Below are positions 41,319 to 50,747 of a stretch of 64,000 nt of DNA, in pieces. Position 1 is the first letter of the stretch. Every line of letters begins with the position of its first letter. The notes beneath the pieces are model-generated. The model made no database searches, had not been told where the DNA came from, and saw only the letters and a list, made by a program, of their open reading frames with translations. Location of the stretch: positions 760,316 through 824,315 of the forward strand of contig OZ242280.1 in assembly GCA_965207345.1 (NCBI GenBank). Reading direction: 5' to 3'. A program made the translations under genes and the position numbers. This DNA comes from Gammaproteobacteria bacterium (GTDB lineage Bacteria > Pseudomonadota > Gammaproteobacteria > PS1 > Pseudothioglobaceae).

Positions 41319-41729
41319 ATGCAAGTCGGCGTGCGATGGTTAAATGATATGAAGATGGAGGCAAAAACACAAAATGGCTATAAAATACATATGGATGGGC
41401 CACCCCATTTCGGCGAGCAGAATAATGGTGCACGTCCGATGGAGATGTTACTGATGGGTTTGGGTGGTTGTATGACGGTTGACGTTGTGGGCATTTTAAA
41501 AAAAATGCGTCAAATTATTTATGACTGCAGTGTGCAGATTAAAGCAAAACGTGCGCCAGAGCCACCAAAAATATTTACGCATATTCACTTGCATTTTATT
41601 TTAAAAGGGGATAATTTGGAAAACATTAAGATAATAAAAGCGCTCAATTTATCGGCGCATAAATATTGTTCAGCGTCTATGATGTTGGGGAAAATGGCAA
41701 ATATTAGTCACGATTTTGAAGTATTATGA
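41319..41729 (+). CDS. OsmC/Ohr family peroxiredoxin-like protein
   Basis: 136 aa with RPMEMLLMGLGGC and a second Cys context (HKYCSAS) typical of OsmC. Confidence 0.7.
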   Translation: MQVGVRWLNDMKMEAKTQNGYKIHMDGPPHFGEQNNGARPMEMLLMGLGGCMTVDVVGILKKMRQIIYDCSVQIKAKRAPEPPKIFTHIHLHFILKGDNLENIKIIKALNLSAHKYCSASMMLGKMANISHDFEVL

Positions 41730-41974
41730 ATCGACTTTTAACTTTTGGCTGGCTAGGGACAATTACTGGTATCATCGGTGGCGTTTTAATAGCACTTAAC
41801 TCGCTTATTTATTCTAAGTTTAGTTTTATTTTTTTTTTATTTTCAGCAGGTAGTTGGTTTATTCAAGGTTATAAAAATAGAGATTATCCGCTTGTGTTAC
41901 TAAATTGCGTATTTATGGTGATTGATATTTTAGGGATTTATAGGTGGTTTTTTCTAAATACTACACCTATTTAA
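41726..41974 (+). CDS. Small three-helix membrane protein, unknown function
   Basis: 82 aa with three hydrophobic helices. The start overlaps the osmC stop (ATGA). The stop lies 6 nt from the first CRISPR repeat. Confidence 0.4.
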   Translation: MNRLLTFGWLGTITGIIGGVLIALNSLIYSKFSFIFFLFSAGSWFIQGYKNRDYPLVLLNCVFMVIDILGIYRWFFLNTTPI

Positions 41975-41980
41975 GCGAAC

Positions 41981-43399
41981 TTTCTAAGCCGCCTATGTGG
42001 CGGTAAACAAACTTTATAGCCTGTGTGCATCATGCCTGTATTTCTAAGCCGCCTATGTGGCGGTAAACATTGGGAAAAAGTAAGAAAGAACTAATTGATT
42101 TTTTCTAAGCCGCCTATGTGGCGGTAAACAAATTGATGAAGTGATTAGTCATTTAAAGCTATTTCTAAGCCGCCTATGTGGCGGTAAACATAGCGGAAGG
42201 TGATGGAAATGCAATAGCAAATTTTCTAAGCCGCCTATGTGGCGGTAAACTTCAAATTGGTTTGATAGATACTCTAACTAGAGAAAATTTCTAAGCCGCC
42301 TATGTGGCGGTAAACACCAAAATTATATTATAGACTTAGCAGCGGACATTTCTAAGCCGCCTATGTGGCGGTAAACTAATTTGCCGAATAAGACTACTTT
42401 GTGATACTTTTCTAAGCCGCCTATGTGGCGGTAAACAGACAACAGTGTCGATCGTAGTAAACGATAATTTTTCTAAGCCGCCTATGTGGCGGTAAACTCA
42501 TCAATCATTTTCTGATTGAAATCTTTTAATTTCTAAGCCGCCTATGTGGCGGTAAACCTGTTAGAGGTTCATTGGGCGTGTCATATACATTTCTAAGCCG
42601 CCTATGTGGCGGTAAACAATCAATAATTTTTGGTTCAATGCAGCAGATATTTCTAAGCCGCCTATGTGGCGGTAAACCCTTAATTCATCAAGATAGCTTG
42701 ACATTTTAATTTCTAAGCCGCCTATGTGGCGGTAAACCTATTGATTCTGCCCTAGTGTAATGAATGTATATTTCTAAGCCGCCTATGTGGCGGTAAACCT
42801 TTGGCGTTGCTTGCTTTACAAGCGTTGTTATTTCTAAGCCGCCTATGTGGCGGTAAACGATAAGTTAAGCTAATTTATATTTTCAATTTCTTTCTAAGCC
42901 GCCTATGTGGCGGTAAACTCATAAGTGATAAAGTTCATACCTCCAATATCTTTCTAAGCCGCCTATGTGGCGGTAAACATATTATATTATGATACCGTGC
43001 TCACATTCTTTTTCTAAGCCGCCTATGTGGCGGTAAACTCCTCAGCATCTCATTGATTATTTTGGGTTAATTTCTAAGCCGCCTATGTGGCGGTAAACTA
43101 TGGGTAAGAGGTCTAGGTTGTTAAGCAAGATTTCTAAGCCGCCTATGTGGCGGTAAACTATTCTAGAATTCGCAAACGAAAAAGTAGATTTTTCTAAGCC
43201 GCCTATGTGGCGGTAAACACTATCACCTGTTTTTGATAATGTTTCAAATTTTTCTAAGCCGCCTATGTGGCGGTAAACATTCTGGCGTGTCAATTTCTGG
43301 CGCGGCTCCATTTTCTAAGCCGCCTATGTGGCGGTAAACTTTTTGTTTTTCATCGTAAAACTCCGTTTTGCTTTCTAAGCCGCCTATGTGGCGGTAAAC
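41981..43399 (-). CRISPR. Type I-F CRISPR array: 24 repeats of 28 nt, 23 spacers
   Basis: All 24 repeats were counted by hand and all are identical. The plus strand reads TTTCTAAGCCGCCTATGTGGCGGTAAAC. The transcribed sense is GTTTACCGCCACATAGGCGGCTTAGAAA, with 5-bp stem CCGCC/GGCGG, 5-nt loop and a CTTAGAAA handle. Sixteen spacers are 32 nt, six are 33 nt and one is 37 nt. Repeat starts are 41981, 42041, 42102, 42162, 42223, 42288, 42349, 42409, 42470, 42530, 42590, 42650, 42710, 42771, 42831, 42891, 42951, 43011, 43071, 43131, 43191, 43251, 43312 and 43372. Confidence 0.97.
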
Positions 43400-43530
43400 A
43401 GTATTTTAAAACGAAAAAATAGCGTTACAACAAATTAAAAACACATATTTCTTTATTTTGACCTATGTTTTTTAACACTGTTGTAACACTTTGATTTTAC
43501 TATATTTTTAAAGAGCAGTTAAATTAATGG
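43400..43530 (-). promoter_or_regulatory. CRISPR leader (AT-rich, between cas6f stop and first repeat)
   Basis: 131 nt, very AT-rich, located between cas6f and the array as in I-F loci. It contains a perfect 9-bp inverted repeat, GTTACAACA (43424-43432) / TGTTGTAAC (43479-43487). Confidence 0.55.
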
Positions 43531-44112
43531 CTAAAAAATAGGGACTGTTGCTACTTTACTTAGCCCAAAGCGATTAAATTCTCCATCAATACTATATTTT
43601 TGCACTTCACCAAACACAATATACAGCCTGTACGAACTTTTTGTAGATGTACTTTGTAATTCTAAATAGGGATTATCTAAACCTGTTTGGAACATTTTAG
43701 CTTTATACTGTTTGATGTATTCTTTTACACTTGCATCTGTGGATAAAATCCCCCTACTTTTCTGATACACTACTCTTTTTTTAAGTTTAGCATTGGTCAT
43801 GGTTTGGCGAGTACGAGAGAAAGTTCTATATCCCTTAATTTTATCTGGTATGGGTAGGATAGCACTTATTTTGCAATAGCTAGATAAATTTTCTAGCCAG
43901 TTTAGATTTTGCATCTCTTGTAACCTTACCTGTCCAGAGTGAATGCGGATAACACATCCGAAAAGTCTTTTTGCTTCCGGAAAGCTTACCCCTATGTCAC
44001 TAGCCTTTATGTCGTAAATGGCTTTGTGGAGTTTGGCATAAACTTTATTAAACAGCATATTTTTATACGTTTCTGCGTCTGGTTGGATAGTTAGATTAAT
44101 ATAATAATTCAT
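43531..44112 (-). CDS. cas6f: Cas6f (Csy4) crRNA endoribonuclease
   Basis: 193 aa, collinear with Pseudomonas Csy4 as I recall it: MNYYINLTIQPD vs MDHYLDIRLRPD, IGVSFPE, RIH, LQSTSTKSSYRLYI vs LRSQSTGQHFRLFI, and C-terminal FGLSKVATVPIF vs YGLSKGGFVPWF. Confidence 0.9.
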   Translation of the reverse strand: MNYYINLTIQPDAETYKNMLFNKVYAKLHKAIYDIKASDIGVSFPEAKRLFGCVIRIHSGQVRLQEMQNLNWLENLSSYCKISAILPIPDKIKGYRTFSRTRQTMTNAKLKKRVVYQKSRGILSTDASVKEYIKQYKAKMFQTGLDNPYLELQSTSTKSSYRLYIVFGEVQKYSIDGEFNRFGLSKVATVPIF

Positions 44113-44120
44113 ATCTCTTC

Positions 44121-45125
44121 TTAAACTCTAATATTAGAAACATATGCTAAGCCTTTTTTACCTAGATAAAAACTAGAGACGCCGGCATTCTCAATCATAT
44201 TCTTTATCTCTTTAGCCTTATCTCGGCTTATATCTAAATTAATTTCAAGTCTTCCGCTAGCTTTAGTCATCAATGGTATAACTACTTCAATGTCTTTTAT
44301 TTTCTCTGTACGCATATAGGGATTGCCCCAGATTTTCTTCCCTTTTCCCGTGGTAAATCTATTCATAAATTCTCTAGTAGTAAAAGTTCGTTTTGAAACA
44401 CCGCTAATACCACCAGCTTTATTTTTTGCTGATGACATATCAAACCGATTAGATAATCTATCTAGTTGTAAATAAAGCGAAGAGTAATAAAAACTCTTAG
44501 GAAATATTTTATCTTTTTTTAGATATTCAATACCAGGAAAATTTTCATTTAGGACTTGCAGAGCTTTTTGAACTACACCTTCATTAATGACAGATTTTTC
44601 TTTATCAATTAATTTTAATTTATTCCTAATAGTTATTGGATTTCCTTTAATAGAACTCAATACAGGCTCATCATTGATTATAAATTTACATAATGATTCA
44701 AAATCAAGCCATAACACACCCCAAAACTCATCAGAATAATCAGAAGAAAATATTACATCATTTTCTTTGATTGATCCAGTAAATGATTCTCGATCAGTAC
44801 TGCCAGTAATATTTCTAATGTAAGTCATTTCATTGGTTTCAATAGATTTATCTTTAAAAGATACTTTATCATTCTTTACAATGCCTTTAAAGAAATAATT
44901 ATTATCTTCTTTACTTTTATAAAGTTTACGTTGATCACCTATGATTCTATTTAGTACACCCATAACTGTATTAAGTGTTACCTCCATTTTTTTAAAGTTT
45001 TCAATATTTTTTAGTTTAGTATATGAAGCAATAAATTTTCTCCCTTTTGAAGGTAATTTTTCATTGTTATTACCATCCAAAAATGAATTACGCCAAGAAG
45101 ATGCATAATCTATAATTACTTTCAT
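44121..45125 (-). CDS. Type I-F variant Cascade subunit, provisionally Cas5fv/Cas5f2-like
   Basis: 334 aa ORF tightly packed (3-8 nt gaps) between the preceding effector ORF and cas6f. I recognise no resemblance to Csy1/Csy2/Csy3. Its size and position match the second effector gene of the minimal I-Fv operon of Shewanella putrefaciens CN-32. Confidence 0.5.
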   Translation of the reverse strand: MKVIIDYASSWRNSFLDGNNNEKLPSKGRKFIASYTKLKNIENFKKMEVTLNTVMGVLNRIIGDQRKLYKSKEDNNYFFKGIVKNDKVSFKDKSIETNEMTYIRNITGSTDRESFTGSIKENDVIFSSDYSDEFWGVLWLDFESLCKFIINDEPVLSSIKGNPITIRNKLKLIDKEKSVINEGVVQKALQVLNENFPGIEYLKKDKIFPKSFYYSSLYLQLDRLSNRFDMSSAKNKAGGISGVSKRTFTTREFMNRFTTGKGKKIWGNPYMRTEKIKDIEVVIPLMTKASGRLEINLDISRDKAKEIKNMIENAGVSSFYLGKKGLAYVSNIRV

Positions 45126-45128
45126 TAT

Positions 45129-46118
45129 TTACTCCTCTAAATCTTTAGCATAGAAATATACTGCATAATCAGATTCTAGTTGCTCGGATATAGTGCTTTC
45201 ATCTTGTTTGATTCGCATCATTTTATGACTATCATTGTAATCTATGAGCACGTCATCAACATACATGTAGGATTTTGCTTGACGAATACATAACTCTCTT
45301 ATCATTTGCAATGTGTGTTCAATTAGTATTTTTATAGCATCATTATTTAATAAAATACCTTTTTCTCCCTCTTCAAAAATAGTGCCACCCCTCACATAGT
45401 TGTTACGAAAGATTGCTTGTGGATTTAATCCTGGATTAAGTGATGAAATATAATTCTGAACAGTTTGTGCAACTTCTTCACCTTGCCCATCTTTAATTAC
45501 CATAGCACAACGGTCAAACTTTCTGTCTAACGAAATAAACTGTAGTTGTTCGATGCTAATTGAGCCGTAAGAAGTATACTTAGTATCACCAAAAGTTGTT
45601 TTTGAAAAGAAAGAAGCACTTTTTTCTGTACCTGATTTTGTTGGCTCTTTTTCTTTACTTCCAGAACGACCCATTTGTTCAAAATTGCCATTACCTAATT
45701 CATCGACAAAATCCTCCATTAATAGTGAGCTAGTACGTTTACATTGACTTGATGTCACAACATAACCACGTACTAAACCTGTGATTGAACCCAAAACATC
45801 TTGCAAATTTTTTTTTGCAGCATAGTGTATATCAAATGCTTGATCTCTAAATAAATGATGACGAATACAATTTTGACTTATATAGAGCGGTGTTTCTTTG
45901 AAGTTTATATCCGTTGCTTCTTTCCTATATTGATAGCCTGTTTCCTCTTTTATTTTTCCAGTAAGGTTTGTATAACCTCTTAATTTTGGTAAACTATGAT
46001 TATTACCGGGTTTACCGTCATCACCTTTTAATGTTGTCGGTCCATTCCAATTAACTACACCATGTCCTAGTGCTGTAATTTTAAAATCAACACTTTTAAT
46101 ACCTGTTATTTTTTTCAT
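45129..46118 (-). CDS. Type I-F variant Cascade subunit, provisionally Cas7fv/Cas7f2-like backbone protein
   Basis: 329 aa ORF starting 2 nt after the cas3 helicase stop. Its size and position match the first effector gene of minimal I-Fv operons. The assignment rests on gene order only. Confidence 0.5.
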
Positions 46119-46120
46119 TA

Positions 46121-47869
46121 TTACTCTCCTTTGAGTTTATCATTTGAAATAACCCCTATAGGTTGTTTTGTTCCTATTGCATAATACATCGCATAAGGAT
46201 TTTGTCTTGCATCTACTTTTGCTAAATCTTCCAGCGTATAGCTTAAATAAATAGGCGTGTCTTGTTCTTTAGATTTTTTTAAATAAATCTTATCCTTATA
46301 TCTTGTAGTAGATTTAACGCCATATTCTGTATCATTTTTTATGTTGTGATGTTTTTTCTCCATAAATGCTAATAAATTCTTTTTATCTTCACCATAACCC
46401 ATAATTGACTCTACAGACAGAGTCAATGACTCCTCTCTACAAGCATATTCATTTGGAAATTCTTCCTTATTATTATTAATATTCATAACAGCCATTTGCA
46501 CGAACCGATTATTACCACGCAAAGAATTATTTTTAATTTTAACTTGGTTGTCTTTTGGTTGTTTTTTATTTGGAAAACAAGTTGGATCTATGTCTTTTTT
46601 ATCAATCCACAAAACACTTTTTTTTAATGCTCTGAGTAAATCTTGCTCAATAGCTTTTATACTAGAGGGATCTTTATAAAACTTTTGATAAATTTGATAC
46701 ATTTTTGTAATCGTAACAATTTTGTTTTCTGGCAGAGATTTTTCCAAAAACTCAAGCCATGCTTTGGTACTTTGCAAACAAAACAAACTATTTAGAAATT
46801 TAGCATTACCTAAGCACTTACCTTTTCTGACATGTTCTGATACTGCTGAAATATAAATATTAGGCTTAGTATTCTTACCAAATCTATCTAACCGCCCTAT
46901 TCTTTGTAGCCAATTTTCAGCGTTAGTGAATTCGCTTATCATTTTATCGCAGGTAATATTTAATGAGGCTTGCACAATGGGTCCTGCTCGTAAAACATCA
47001 TAAGATTTTGACCCATTTTGTTTAAATGAACCAAACACTTTATTAAATAGCTTTCTTTTGTCGGACGGTTTGAATTTACTATGAATTAAAATTGCTTTTT
47101 CTTTCTTTTGATTGTGAATAAAACTAAGCTGGGCATTGATAGCAGTATTGCTAATAACAAAGGTTTTTTTGTTTTTATCTTGTAATTGACACAGCGGATT
47201 AGTTTCATCAATTAATTTTTCATCAAACTTCTGAAATTTTATTTGGTATTGGTTCTGGTTATAACTTTCAATGCTGATAATATCATCTTCATACAAGCCT
47301 AATAATTCTTTAATAAAGTGAAAATTAGGTGTGGCAGAAACCAATAAGGTTTTGTTTTCTCTTTGTAATTTTTTACACTCCACTAATTCTGCAAACAACA
47401 AATTAAAACCAGTCATTGGAATATATTCATGATATTCATCAAACACGATATGGGCATTCATAAATTGAACCAAGCCTGTTACTTTTTTATGAGTGGTAAT
47501 AGTATTAATAATTTGGTCAATAGTAGTTAAAACAATATCTCCTGAAAATTCTTGATTTTCTGGAGTTGGAGTTTCACTGCCATTTTGATAAAGAGTTTTA
47601 AATTCGTCTGTGCAAATTTCAATTTTAGTATTTGGCAAATATTCCTTGCTGGTTAAATCATTCACCAAACCTTGACATATTTGCACTCTAGGACAGACCC
47701 AAATAATTTTTTTCGCATTATTATTTGCCGCCCATTCCAAAGCTATTTTGGTTTTACCACAACCTGCTGGACCACTTAATACCCCCACGGTAATTTCTTC
47801 ATCAGTTAATTTTTCCGCCGCTGATTTTTGGCTTTTATTTCTATTGCTATTTGAAGGATCTTCTCTCAA
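46121..47869 (-). CDS. cas3: Cas3 SF2 helicase portion of Cas2-3 (separate ORF here)
   Basis: 582 aa with Walker [10 protein letters not shown] (compare Pa Cas2-3 ASTGCGKT), DExH-like FDEYHE, SATP (motif III) and a C-terminal RIGRLDRFG (motif VI). It has no ATG start; the frame opens with TTG at 47869 straight after a stop-rich stretch. Confidence 0.8.
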
Positions 47870-47932
47870 AACCCTGTAGACATACTTTAATATCTTTAGT
47901 TAATCTTCGTTCAATTAAGAAAGCATCATTTA

Positions 47933-48130
47933 CTAATTTTTTAATGTATTTTGTTCAATATGCATCTTCAAGTCTTCTGCATTTAGTACAGATACCAGTC
48001 TATCAGCAGTCACCACAACTGCTCGTGCAATATTGTTTTTAGCATTGCTTTTTATATCTATTTGGTAATCTTTAAAACACTCATTTGGACCATAACTTTT
48101 ATAATGAGGTAAGGGAAATGCGTAATTCAC
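47933..48130 (-). pseudogene. cas3: Frame-shifted internal piece of cas2-3 carrying HD motif V
   Basis: This 65-codon frame is the same frame as the helicase ORF and different from the Cas2-HD ORF. It encodes ...IARAVVVTADRLVS..., matching the LILMLADHHYSS-type last HD motif of Cas3. It is bounded upstream by TAA (48133-48131) and downstream by TAG (47935-47933). Confidence 0.6.
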
Positions 48131-49034
48131 TTAGATTATCCGCATCGGCATGTTTAAGCAAATGACCAATTTTTAAATCTAAATTATAATTTGCACTATT
48201 TGTATTAATAGCAGTTATCAGTCCATGTATTCTTGGGGATAAACTATTAATAGTTTCATTTATTAATGATGCCATAAGCTTTTTGTAAATAACTTCTAGT
48301 GTTTTAAACTCTTCTTTTCTAACAGGCTTTGCATGATGCCAATAAACCGTATGTTTAACTAATTTTTTGTTTGGCTTATTAATAGAGGTATCATTTCTAT
48401 TATCAAACAAATAATAAAGCAGTAAGGATATTTCATTGTGCCTTGGGTGTTTTTCAAAGGAAAATTTTTTATCAATATGTTGCCCTTCTTCAGGAATTTC
48501 TTCAATTAATTTCTTTTTCGTTTTATCTAAAATCCATTTTTGAAAAGCAGGGTCAATTTTTCCCATATCGTGCCAACAGCCAGCTACAAAAACTGCTTTG
48601 GCAAGTGTATCGTCACCAACTAATTTTTGGCATAACAAATAAGACACATAACCAACAGCAAATAAATGTTGATCTAAAGGTTGTTTTTTGGTATTTGCAT
48701 ACATAGTATTCATATTTATATGATCCTCAATTTCTCCAATAAATGGATTTTTTTCAGTATAATTAACCGCTACAATCCCCTCACTGTTAAATTTATCTCT
48801 GTTACCAATAATCCACAATAACTCGGTTCTAAGCCTTGATTTTAACTGATGACAACTAATAGCGGTGTTTTTACTAGCTGTTTTTCTTAATAACTTTCTA
48901 ACGGCGTCCAATCCTTCTTGGGTGATGGGGGTTTGCCAGGTATTACTACCGATGCGGTTAGCGAAAGCATCTAGTACTCTGCGGGTACGTTTGAGGGCTT
49001 TTTTCTCACATTCGCTGATAAAAGTTACAAGCAT
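48099..49034 (-). CDS. cas3: Cas2 domain fused to Cas3 HD nuclease domain (N-terminal part of Cas2-3)
   Basis: 311 aa. The N-terminus MLVTFISECEKKALKRTRRVLDAFANRIGSNTWQTPITQEGLDAVRKLL is collinear with the I-F Cas2-3 N-terminus (MNILLVSQCEKRALSETRRILDQFAERRGERTWQTPITQAGLDTLRRLL). HD motifs are CWHDMGKIDPAFQ, HPRHNEIS and YWHH. Confidence 0.85.
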   Translation of the reverse strand: MLVTFISECEKKALKRTRRVLDAFANRIGSNTWQTPITQEGLDAVRKLLRKTASKNTAISCHQLKSRLRTELLWIIGNRDKFNSEGIVAVNYTEKNPFIGEIEDHINMNTMYANTKKQPLDQHLFAVGYVSYLLCQKLVGDDTLAKAVFVAGCWHDMGKIDPAFQKWILDKTKKKLIEEIPEEGQHIDKKFSFEKHPRHNEISLLLYYLFDNRNDTSINKPNKKLVKHTVYWHHAKPVRKEEFKTLEVIYKKLMASLINETINSLSPRIHGLITAINTNSANYNLDLKIGHLLKHADADNLSELRISLTSL

Positions 49035-49035
49035 T

Positions 49036-49995
49036 TTACGTTTTCTCTACTTGGCTACAAATGTTTTTCACTGTATCAAACATAAAATCTAGCGCCCTGT
49101 ATTTGACAAAGTTTAGAAGGCATTGAGCGCGAAATTCTTGTTCACTTATTTTTTCCTTAGCGCAGATGAATGCCCAAGGCAGGATGAGACTATCTTTAAT
49201 AAGATCAGCGATGTCAAATACTAATGCACCACGACGGGTTTTACCATGCATTAAGGCAAGACCGTGCGGAATGCCTAATACCCAAAGCGTAGTGGCAGCT
49301 AGCCCGTAAGCGAGGTAATTGCCATGGTTTAGGAAATTATTGGCAAGATCACCACTGACATGAGTGCGGGTGAAATTATTGGTTTTAGTGCTAGCTGCAG
49401 CTTGTCTGTATAATGCCTTGGTAAGGTTTGCTTCATCGGTTAGTAGCTTATTAACGGTGCTGGCATTAATAATTTTTTCTCTAAATTTAATAAGTAAGTC
49501 ATCATCAATGGCAAAACCTTCTAGTTTCAAATCTTTACTCCTTCCCCAAACCTTTGCTAAGAAATCAAGTCGTCTTTGTTGTATTTGTTTAGCAAAATAG
49601 AGGCGTTTTTGCTCATCAAACCAAAATTGCATCCATGCCTGGACATATTCAGTTGGGCGATATTCACTTTGCGGGCTCAGCCATTCTATCTCACTTGTGG
49701 CAATAAGTGGTGTACCGCCTGATCCGCTAAAACCAACTAAGACACCTGCCTGGGCTAACATGCGCATAGCACACTGAGTAATAGAAGTGCCGTTACCTAA
49801 TAAAATACAAGTAGTATTAGCGATGGGGATATTCCAGTATTGTTTATTATCTTGTTTCTCAGCAAGGTATAAAACTCTGCCATCTTTTTGCATCACGCGA
49901 CATTTTTCTAAATAATAAATATTAGCGCGCTTTGAATGTAATATGGCTTTTAAATCAGTTAATTGTTCCATGAATAGGTAATGGTTTGCTGACAT
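49036..49995 (-). CDS. cas1: Cas1, type I-F
   Basis: 319 aa with long identical stretches to Pseudomonas Cas1f as I recall it: ILHSKRANIYYL, YWNIPIANTT, GTSITQ.AMR.LA.AGVLVGF, PQSEYRPTEY, NFLNHGNYLAYGLAATTLWVLGIPHGLALMHGKTRRGALVFDIADLIKDSLILP. Confidence 0.95.
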   Translation of the reverse strand: MSANHYLFMEQLTDLKAILHSKRANIYYLEKCRVMQKDGRVLYLAEKQDNKQYWNIPIANTTCILLGNGTSITQCAMRMLAQAGVLVGFSGSGGTPLIATSEIEWLSPQSEYRPTEYVQAWMQFWFDEQKRLYFAKQIQQRRLDFLAKVWGRSKDLKLEGFAIDDDLLIKFREKIINASTVNKLLTDEANLTKALYRQAAASTKTNNFTRTHVSGDLANNFLNHGNYLAYGLAATTLWVLGIPHGLALMHGKTRRGALVFDIADLIKDSLILPWAFICAKEKISEQEFRAQCLLNFVKYRALDFMFDTVKNICSQVEKT

Positions 49996-50075: not shown

Positions 50076-50747
50076 CTATAGTAATATTTTACTAGCTATC
50101 GCTAAAGTAGCAATCTCACTTTTTAAAACATAGTTTGTCTCAAAACTAATACGCTTATTAGACTTAAAAAGCGCACATTCCCTTTTTGTTAGTCCACCTT
50201 CAGGTCCTATTAAAACCGTTTTAATATCAGAGGAACATGCCTTAATTGCTGGTGCATTAAAATTTAGAAGTAGTGTCTCAGGATGCGCTTCAATAAATGC
50301 CTCAATACTTGGTATAGTAGCTAGAATCATCGGCTTTATTCTGCCACATTGCATGCAAGATTGAATGAGCAAATGGCGTAATTTATCCAAATTAATATCA
50401 AAATTTCTCTGACTGCGCTCAGCATAAATAAAAGTAATTTTTGTTACGCCTAATTGGTTCAGATAAGGTAAAAAATTTCTAATAATTGCACCTTGGACTA
50501 TGCACCAAGCAATATGCAATTTTTTACCGCACTTATCTTTTACAAGTCTTTTTTTAACAAGTTTTACGTTCGCATACTTGGCACTTAATTTTAATATTTG
50601 ATAATCATAATAATAATTGTCTCTAAGGTTAGCAAAGCAAAGAAGAGTTTCTGTTTTATGTCTGCGTGTTTTAAATAGATGTAGAAATAAATCTCCAGTG
50701 ATGGTGACGTGCGTTTCACCTGCTCTGTTGTGATAAGCAAAAACCAT
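50076..50747 (-). CDS. rsmE: 16S rRNA (uracil1498-N3)-methyltransferase
   Basis: 223 aa with a PUA-like N-terminus and a SPOUT C-terminus carrying LIGPEGGLTKRE and the terminal KSEIATLAIASKILL. Confidence 0.8.
   Translation of the reverse strand: MVFAYHNRAGETHVTITGDLFLHLFKTRRHKTETLLCFANLRDNYYYDYQILKLSAKYANVKLVKKRLVKDKCGKKLHIAWCIVQGAIIRNFLPYLNQLGVTKITFIYAERSQRNFDINLDKLRHLLIQSCMQCGRIKPMILATIPSIEAFIEAHPETLLLNFNAPAIKACSSDIKTVLIGPEGGLTKRECALFKSNKRISFETNYVLKSEIATLAIASKILL

What the first reader, a model, noticed from the sequence alone, without database searches (positions are those of the whole stretch)
47847..48133. cas2-3 is broken by three clustered frame changes confined to the HD-helicase junction
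Seen in sequence: the Cas2-HD ORF ends at 48099. HD motif V (VVTADRLVS) lies in a different frame (48130-47933), which opens right after a TAA and is the same frame as the helicase ORF. Between 47935 and 47870 that frame has four stops (TAG, TAA, TAA, TAA). A third frame is open across exactly this stretch, 47954-47850, reading [36 protein letters not shown] continuous protein of about 970 aa can therefore be rebuilt with shifts near 48100-48130, near 47936-47954 (at an A6 run TTAAAAAATTAG) and near 47850-47869. The flanking 0.9 kb and 1.7 kb are intact, and the helicase ORF has no ATG or good RBS. Inference: the cause could be recent inactivation of the interference nuclease (the adaptation and crRNA modules look intact), local sequencing/homopolymer error, or expression through slippage. 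A nuclease-dead locus with a perfect 24-repeat array would be biologically interesting, for example as a binding-only or regulatory system.
Basis: partly seen in the sequence, partly recalled or inferred. Interest (0 to 1): 0.6.

Follow-up and report, generated by a model that had tools for sequence, protein, structure and literature searches.

The report
Broken cas2-3 in I-F2 CRISPR locus
A compact type I-F2 CRISPR-Cas locus in a small, AT-rich Thioglobaceae-type genome has its DNA-cutting gene cas2-3 interrupted by three single-base frame errors within about 265 bases, which is either very recent gene decay or a local assembly error, and only raw reads can tell which.

Summary
On the minus strand, cas2-3 (49034-46121) is cut into four pieces by three frame changes within about 265 bp: a surplus base at 48113-48119, one base too few at the A6 run 47937-47942, and a surplus base at 47852-47864.

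A read-through aligns end to end with about 970-aa homologues (best 70% identity). All listed full-length homologues are continuous, as are those of three family relatives and the solved Shewanella Cas2-3f2 (PDB 9G44). This is therefore not a natural split, and two of the three sites have no slippery sequence.

Everything else looks intact: the catalytic motifs, cas1, cas7fv, cas5fv, cas6f and 24 identical repeats. No spacer matches the organism's own genome.

Assembly-wide indel noise is low (at most 8 candidates in about 930 conserved genes), so the cluster has a local cause. Other I-F2 loci in this family are also damaged (G001, G022, G009).

I lean slightly towards real, very recent inactivation (about 0.5) over a local consensus error (about 0.4). 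The finding is ordinary unless a Cas3-less function is shown.

The parts
49036..49995 (-). cas1 (type I-F Cas1f), intact, 319 aa
   Evidence: TIGR03637 E=1e-137, covering 1-306 of 307 profile positions. It differs at 2 of 149 columns that are invariant in 14 homologues, within the range of intact homologues.
46121..49034 (-). cas2-3 (Cas2-3f2) as one ancestral gene, now in four pieces. A read-through with X at each junction gives 972 aa.
   Evidence: It aligns end to end with about 970-aa homologues (best 70% identity) with all invariant columns kept. Pfam finds the Cas2 domain PF21384, Cas3_HD, DEAD and Cas3-like_C_2. PDB 9g44_A aligns continuously over residues 109-966, E=7e-229.
48099..49034 (-). 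Piece A: Cas2 domain plus HD motifs up to YWHH. A 311-aa ORF that ends in TAA.
   Evidence: It lacks the last HD aspartate (ADR), which lies in piece B.
48113..48119 (-). Junction 1: one surplus base in ATTTCCC (+1).
   Evidence: ELRI is read in phase 2 and LPHYKSY in phase 0. Four bases sit where homologues have one residue.
47933..48130 (-). Piece B: end of the HD domain with motif V (VVTADRLVS), in the helicase phase.
   Evidence: It keeps 22 of 22 columns that are at least 10/11 conserved in homologues.
47937..47942 (-). Junction 2: A6 run, one base too few (-1). TAG and TAA follow immediately in the old phase.
   Evidence: Homologues have NTL, two residues, then L. The window reads ACA TTA AAA AAT TAG. 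The in-phase heptamer A_AAA_AAT is read directly from the sequence.
47850..47954 (-). Piece C: linker [24 protein letters not shown], in the same phase as piece A.
   Evidence: It keeps 9 of 11 conserved columns.
47852..47864 (-). Junction 3: one surplus base within AGAAGATCCTTCA (+1).
   Evidence: There are 13 nt between GFE and NSNRNK where homologues have four residues.
46121..47869 (-). Piece D: RecA1, RecA2 and C-terminal domain of Cas3. A 582-aa ORF with a TTG start and no usable RBS.
   Evidence: TIGR01587 cas3_core E=1e-34. Walker [16 protein letters not shown] and QRIGRLDR all fall in invariant columns.
45129..46118 (-). cas7fv, intact, 329 aa
   Evidence: NF040577 E=4e-145, covering 1-317 of 317 profile positions.
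44121..45125 (-). cas5fv, intact, 334 aa
   Evidence: PF20158 Cas5fv_helical E=2e-56. It aligns full length to relatives.
43531..44112 (-). cas6f, intact, 193 aa
   Evidence: TIGR02563 E=6e-42, covering 1-184 of 184 profile positions.
41981..43399 (-). CRISPR array: 24 identical 28-nt repeats (GTTTACCGCCACATAGGCGGCTTAGAAA on the minus strand) and 23 spacers of 32-37 nt. The leader is probably 43400-43530.
   Evidence: No spacer matches elsewhere in the 1.49-Mb genome over 20 nt or more. Two leader-side spacers have no exact match in IMG/VR.

Best explanation
This is a standard type I-F2 (I-Fv) CRISPR-Cas locus: cas1, cas2-3, cas7fv, cas5fv, cas6f and a 24-repeat array. Its single cas2-3 gene has been knocked out very recently by three one-base insertions or deletions (+1, -1, +1) in the poorly conserved stretch that joins the HD nuclease to RecA1. 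As written, the DNA can give only a 311-aa Cas2-HD stump that lacks the last catalytic HD aspartate. The helicase part has no ATG or ribosome-binding site. Cascade could therefore still assemble and bind targets, but Cas3 nicking and degradation would be lost. I read this as the first step of the CRISPR-Cas decay that other members of this small-genome family show in more advanced forms. What is shown: the three lesions, the one-gene ancestry, and the intactness of everything else. What is inferred: that the lesions exist in the organism's DNA rather than only in the assembly, and that they are selectively neutral decay.
For: Homologues are continuous. One search found 1713 hits, and the listed full-length ones are about 970 aa. 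Relatives G022, G009 and G017 have open frames of 956-964 aa, and PDB 9G44 Cas2-3f2 is one chain. The read-through keeps every invariant column, including HD and helicase motifs. A genome-wide census against the closest relative, G015, finds at most 8 colinear frame changes in about 930 conserved genes, against 2 in the reciprocal control. Several of those 8 are simply adjacent genes. The assembly is therefore not noisy. Within the family, 6 of 122 species genomes carry this cas2-3. Three of the other five are damaged: G001 is an eroded remnant without cas7, cas5 or an array; G022 has lost cas1 and has a frameshifted, truncated Cas2 domain; G009 has a frameshift in cas7fv. G017 is intact and G012 is cut by a contig end.
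Against: The lesions are too clustered for independent neutral hits (p about 0.02 within the gene). The remaining 2.6 kb of cas2-3, the 3.5 kb of other cas genes and the 672 bp of repeats carry no lesion at all. The out-of-frame pieces show no extra substitutions: 31 of 33 conserved columns are kept, against 134 of 152 and 280 of 294 in the flanks. Outside the mosaic N-terminus, divergence at invariant columns is like that of intact homologues. The helicase part is, if anything, slightly better conserved than expected from cas7fv. A gene that is pristine apart from three neighbouring indels is also exactly what a local consensus error would produce.
Confidence: 0.5

Rival explanations
1. Local assembly or consensus artefact. 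The organism has an intact cas2-3, and the three indels were introduced when the consensus was built. Possible causes are a low-coverage or low-quality patch, or a collapse of co-existing strain alleles in the most variable part of the gene.
For: Three indels sit within about 265 bp, while the rest of the gene, the other four cas genes and all 24 repeats are flawless. There is no sign of relaxed constraint in the broken gene. One site is an A6 homopolymer and another a T3C3 run. The cluster lies in the least conserved stretch of the protein, residues about 240-420, where divergent strain alleles would differ most. Elsewhere in the genome, the match to G015's riboflavin-deaminase-like ORF changes frame at an A8 run (G000 about 1900-1915), which may point to residual homopolymer errors.
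Against: Genome-wide indel noise is very low, and no other multi-indel patch was seen in about 0.9 Mb of conserved coding sequence. Marker-gene completeness is 99.96%. Two of the three sites are not real homopolymers. The patch shows no accompanying substitution errors at conserved residues. Damaged I-F2 loci are common in this family.
Confidence: 0.4
2. The breaks are real, but a full-length Cas2-3 is still made by ribosomal frameshifting or transcriptional slippage.
For: At junction 2 the old phase reads TT A_AAA_AAT TAG. This is an in-phase X_XXY_YYZ heptamer followed directly by a stop, and a -1 shift there would restore ...NTLKNLVND... (read from the sequence). Per an earlier first-reader note (not checked here), dnaX in this window stops just after an A10 run.
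Against: Junctions 1 and 3 need +1 shifts at ATTTCCC and AGAAGATCC, which carry no known +1 signal and have no stop or hungry codon at the required place. Three low-efficiency events in series would give a negligible yield. None of the homologues examined shares any of the frame changes. An A6 run is shorter than the tracts known to support useful transcriptional slippage (general knowledge, not tested here).
Confidence: 0.03
3. Cas2-HD and the helicase are naturally separate genes in this lineage, a split Cas3''/Cas3' arrangement.
For: Split HD and helicase genes exist in other type I subtypes (general knowledge). The two large ORFs (311 and 582 aa) look superficially like such a pair.
Against: About 90 codons of conserved sequence, including HD motif V, lie between the two ORFs and are split over two phases with stops. 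All full-length I-F2 homologues examined and the solved structure are single chains. The helicase ORF has no ATG or RBS.
Confidence: 0.01

Closest known systems
Type I-F2 (I-Fv) CRISPR-Cas of Shewanella putrefaciens CN-32 (Cas1, Cas2-3f2, Cas7f2, Cas5f2, Cas6f2; PDB 9G44, PMC12956352; PMC4937334)
   Same: The gene set and order are the same, with no Cas8 or Cas11. The repeats are 28-nt I-F-type. The Cas2-3 read-through aligns with 9g44_A over residues 109-966 at E=7e-229, and the Cas7fv, Cas5fv and Cas6f family hits match.
   Different: Here cas2-3 is interrupted three times between HD motif IV and Walker A. In Shewanella it is one functional chain, and nuclease or Walker-motif mutations abolish interference (PMC12956352).
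Decay of defence systems in host-restricted or small-genome bacteria, e.g. 'Ca. Endomicrobium trichonymphae' genomovars (PMC5174739, title and abstract only), and a broken type I-G remnant noted earlier in this scan (e1-3014254)
   Same: cas genes are disabled by frameshifts in a small genome that also carries gene stumps. Relatives show more advanced erosion of the same kind of locus.
   Different: Here the damage is minimal and tightly clustered, with no deletions, an intact array and an intact adaptation module. If real, it would be the very earliest stage.
Naturally Cas3-less type I derivatives that only bind DNA (Tn7-associated I-F3/CAST systems, type IV-A with CasDinG)
   Same: As written, the locus would yield Cascade and crRNAs without a working nuclease-helicase.
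   Different: Those systems lack cas3 altogether or replace it, and they have partner genes (tnsABC/tniQ, dinG). No such partners are seen here between rsmE (50076-50747) and the OsmC-like gene (41319-41729), and no spacer targets the organism's own genome.

Membership tests
Type I-F2 (I-Fv) CRISPR-Cas | Cas7fv backbone protein | tested here: met
   NF040577 E=4e-145, full profile coverage.
Type I-F2 (I-Fv) CRISPR-Cas | Cas5fv with the inserted helical domain that replaces Cas8 | tested here: met
   PF20158 Cas5fv_helical E=2e-56.
Type I-F2 (I-Fv) CRISPR-Cas | No cas8f or cas11 gene between cas2-3 and cas6f | tested here: met
   The ORFs abut: 46121/46118, 45129/45125 and 44121/44112. There is no room for another gene.
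Type I-F2 (I-Fv) CRISPR-Cas | Cas2 fused to Cas3 (HD plus SF2 helicase) in one polypeptide | tested here: inconclusive
   All domains are present and colinear, but the reading frame is broken three times in this sequence.
Type I-F2 (I-Fv) CRISPR-Cas | Cas6f and 28-nt I-F-type repeats, Cas1f | tested here: met
   TIGR02563 and TIGR03637. There are 24 identical 28-nt repeats.
Type I-F2 (I-Fv) CRISPR-Cas | Cas3-dependent interference activity | not testable with these tools
   This needs a transformation or phage assay. The sequence as written predicts loss of activity.
Programmed ribosomal frameshift / recoding site | Slippery sequence in phase at each shift | tested here: not met
   Only junction 2 has one (A_AAA_AAT). 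Junctions 1 and 3 have none.
Programmed ribosomal frameshift / recoding site | The frame change is conserved in homologues | tested here: not met
   All full-length homologues examined are continuous.
Genuine pseudogene (as opposed to assembly error) | Lesions confirmed by independent reads or a second isolate | not testable with these tools
There are no other records of this species.
Genuine pseudogene (as opposed to assembly error) | Additional signs of relaxed constraint (substitutions at conserved sites, deletions, lesions spread over the gene) | tested here: not met
   Searches show none. Lesions are confined to about 265 bp.

The most novel reading that the evidence does not exclude
The three lesions are real, and the locus is kept as a Cas3-less I-F2 system. 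Cascade and crRNAs from a perfectly maintained 24-repeat array, together with an intact Cas1, would still be used, for example for binding-only silencing of invaders. The clustered lesions would then mark a single mutational event that switched the nuclease off.
Probability: 0.06. Interest if true: 0.55.

Novelty: new member of a known kind. Interest (0 to 1): 0.2.

Why it matters
If real, this catches a CRISPR-Cas system at the moment its nuclease is lost, while adaptation, crRNA processing and Cascade are still untouched. It occurs in a bacterial family where the same system is seen at several later stages of erosion. That gives a small natural series for studying how immunity is shed during genome reduction. 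If it is an artefact, it warns that the record needs correction at this spot. In both cases the biology is of a familiar kind.

Tried and rejected
- **Independent copies of the same species:** there is no protein above 70% identity in the 5.8-billion-protein collection. Exact look-ups of both ORFs returned nothing. An exact-pattern scan of metagenome contigs across the A-run found nothing. No other genome of this genus is held.
- **Autoimmunity as a reason to lose Cas3:** none of the 23 spacers matches the organism's own genome over 20 nt or more, nor any fetched relative locus.
- **Spacer targets:** two leader-side spacers have no exact match in IMG/VR. I did not pursue this further.
- **Recombination junction as the cause:** the gene is a mosaic, but the breakpoint lies near residue 110-120, far from the lesions at residues 306-393.
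- **Compensating frameshift pairs:** rejected, because each intervening stretch contains stops in the wrong phase.
- **Relaxed constraint on the other cas genes:** Cas5fv at first looked divergent in a leave-one-out count, but it is as expected once scaled to Cas7fv divergence. Only Cas6f is mildly low, by 1.2-1.4 sd.
- **Identifying the genome paper by its length:** no hit.

Full report
**What is there**

The window is G000:C1:760316-824315 of a single-contig genome of 1,486,647 bp with 34.6% GC. Its family includes 'Ca. Thiodubiliella': relative G022 is record OY821614.

On the minus strand between rsmE (50076-50747) and an OsmC-like gene (41319-41729) lies a compact CRISPR-Cas locus:
- cas1f, 49995-49036
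- cas2-3, 49034-46121
- cas7fv, 46118-45129
- cas5fv, 45125-44121
- cas6f, 44112-43531
- an array of 24 identical 28-nt repeats with 23 spacers, 43399-41981

These assignments rest. The gene set, the absence of cas8 and cas11, and the NF040577 and PF20158 hits make it a type I-F2 (I-Fv) system.

**Checking the observation**

- The Cas2-HD ORF stops at 48101-48099.
- The next 65 codons, which include HD motif V (VVTADRLVS), are in the phase of the helicase ORF.
- That phase then meets TAG, TAA, TAA and TAA.
- The stretch 47954-47850 is open and reads [35 protein letters not shown].
- The helicase ORF starts at a TTG with no usable Shine-Dalgarno sequence and no ATG before Walker A.

One detail is wrong. 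The 'third' frame is the same phase as the Cas2-HD ORF, so only two phases alternate and the lesions are +1, -1 and +1.

**Locating the lesions**

I read the gene through with an X at each junction (972 aa) and searched it. There were 1713 homologues. The listed full-length ones are about 970 aa and continuous, and the best reaches 70% identity. No closer allele exists in that collection.

The alignment is colinear from the first residue to the last. It fixes the lesions as follows:
- **Junction 1, 48113-48119.** ELRI is followed by four bases (TCCC) where homologues have one residue, and then by LPHYKSY.
- **Junction 2, 47937-47942.** NTL is followed by an A6 run where two codons are expected.
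- **Junction 3, 47852-47864.** There are 13 nt between GFE and NSNRNK where homologues have four residues.

Relatives G022, G009 and G017 have open frames of 956-964 aa. The solved S. putrefaciens Cas2-3f2 (PDB 9G44; PMC12956352) aligns continuously across the region at E=7e-229. The gene is therefore one ancestral cas2-3 and not a natural split.

**State of the rest of the gene and locus**

All HD motifs (HD, H, HH, D) and all helicase motifs ([15 protein letters not shown], QRxGRxxR) fall in invariant columns.

The two out-of-frame pieces keep 31 of 33 columns that are conserved in at least 10 of 11 homologues. The flanks keep 134 of 152 and 280 of 294. In a leave-one-out count, the window differs at 19 of 357 otherwise invariant columns. 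Eleven of the 19 are in the first 102 alignment columns.

That N-terminus has a different origin. It is 86% identical to family relatives G009 and G017, whereas residues 120-972 are closest to Methylococcales and Mariprofundaceae MAG proteins. This mosaic breakpoint is far from the lesions.

Cas1, Cas7fv and Cas5fv show ordinary conservation, and Cas6f is mildly divergent. The helicase part is not evolving faster than expected from Cas7fv. No spacer matches the organism's own genome.

**Is the assembly noisy?**

I fetched 96% of the closest relative's genome (G015, 73% identity on a housekeeping protein). I then ran its 1310 ORFs against G000 with tblastn, and did the reciprocal search as a control.

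Of about 930 conserved genes, 8 show colinear frame changes in G000, against 2 in the control. On inspection, several of the 8 are just adjacent genes. The remainder include:
- a frame change at an A8 run inside the match to a riboflavin-deaminase-like (RibD-type, by eye) G015 ORF;
- a frame change inside the match to a membrane protein that looks like heme O synthase;
- true stumps and multi-stop pseudogenes.

No other multi-indel patch was seen. Random error at this rate cannot put three indels into 265 bp, so the cluster has a local cause.

**Real or artefact?**

*Points favouring real decay:*
- The genome does contain genuine gene remnants.
- In this family the same kind of locus is sporadic, found in 6 of 122 species genomes. 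It sits in different genomic contexts and is usually damaged.
- G001 keeps only fragments of cas1, cas2-3 and cas6f in about 2.5 kb, with no cas7, cas5 or array.
- G022 has lost cas1 and has a frameshifted, truncated Cas2 domain.
- G009 has a frameshift in cas7fv.
- Only G017 is intact.

*Points favouring an artefact:*
- Three independent neutral indels should be spread over the gene (p about 0.02 for this clustering). They should also be accompanied by substitutions and by lesions in the other cas genes and the repeats. None is seen.
- A gene that is pristine apart from three neighbouring indels, in the most variable segment of the protein, is what a local consensus problem would give. A collapse of strain alleles is one example.

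Reads would settle this. I put real, very recent inactivation at about 0.5 and artefact at about 0.4.

**Other readings**

Expression through recoding is very unlikely. Junction 2 does form an in-phase A_AAA_AAT heptamer followed by TAG. Junctions 1 and 3 have no +1 signal, the breaks are not shared by any homologue, and three events in series would give almost no product.

A retained Cas3-less, binding-only role is not excluded, but nothing supports it. There are no self-targeting spacers and no partner genes.

**Verdict**

The biology is a known kind: a type I-F2 locus with a disabled, or mis-assembled, cas2-3. Interest is low unless reads confirm the lesions and a function for the nuclease-less system is shown.

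Noticed in passing
window 48700-49995 versus 46121-48700: cas2-3 is a mosaic. cas1 and the Cas2 domain (residues 1-110, about 40% GC) are most like family relatives G009 and G017 (up to 86%). Residues 120-972 (about 30% GC) are most like proteins from Methylococcales and Mariprofundaceae MAGs (about 70%). This suggests recombination between I-F2 loci of deep-sea bacteria.
   Followed up: partly
L167 (G001:C1:188387-190870): A relative carries an eroded I-F2 remnant. Fragments of cas1, cas2-3 (six pieces in two phases) and cas6f are packed into about 2.5 kb, with no cas7fv, cas5fv or array.
   Followed up: partly
L168 (G022, Ca. Thiodubiliella OY821614, about 386.7-387.1 kb): This I-F2 locus has 42 repeats and intact interference genes, but no cas1 was found in the 9 kb upstream of cas2-3. 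The Cas2-domain N-terminus is truncated and frameshifted (KRTRRVLDAFANRIGN is in another phase), so only adaptation is lost.
   Followed up: partly
L169 (G009:C10, about 185.8 kb): cas7fv is split between two phases at residue 138/139 in this draft genome, while its cas2-3 is intact.
   Followed up: partly
G000:C1:1230-2271 (outside the window): The match to a G015 ORF that looks like RibD (riboflavin deaminase/reductase, by eye) changes frame at an A8 run (GAGCAATTAAAAAAAAGCAGG). This is either a homopolymer sequencing error or a poly(A) lesion of the kind rescued by slippage in other small genomes.
   Followed up: no
G000:C1:418038-418884 (outside the window): The match to a G015 membrane protein that looks like heme O synthase (CtaB/CyoE, by eye) has its last 70 codons or so in another phase. 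The shift is near TTACTTGATTATCGTG, which is not a long homopolymer.
   Followed up: no
L113-L114 (G015:C1:417408-420728): The closest relative encodes a 1106-aa protein whose first 170 residues match the window's Cas2-HD N-terminus at 50% identity. Its size suggests a canonical I-F1 Cas2-3, so CRISPR subtype may differ between close relatives.
   Followed up: no
window 42251-42287: One spacer is 37 nt, while all the others are 32-33 nt.
   Followed up: no
window 41726-41974: An 82-aa ORF with no Pfam hit overlaps the stop of the OsmC-like gene and ends right at the trailer end of the array.
   Followed up: no
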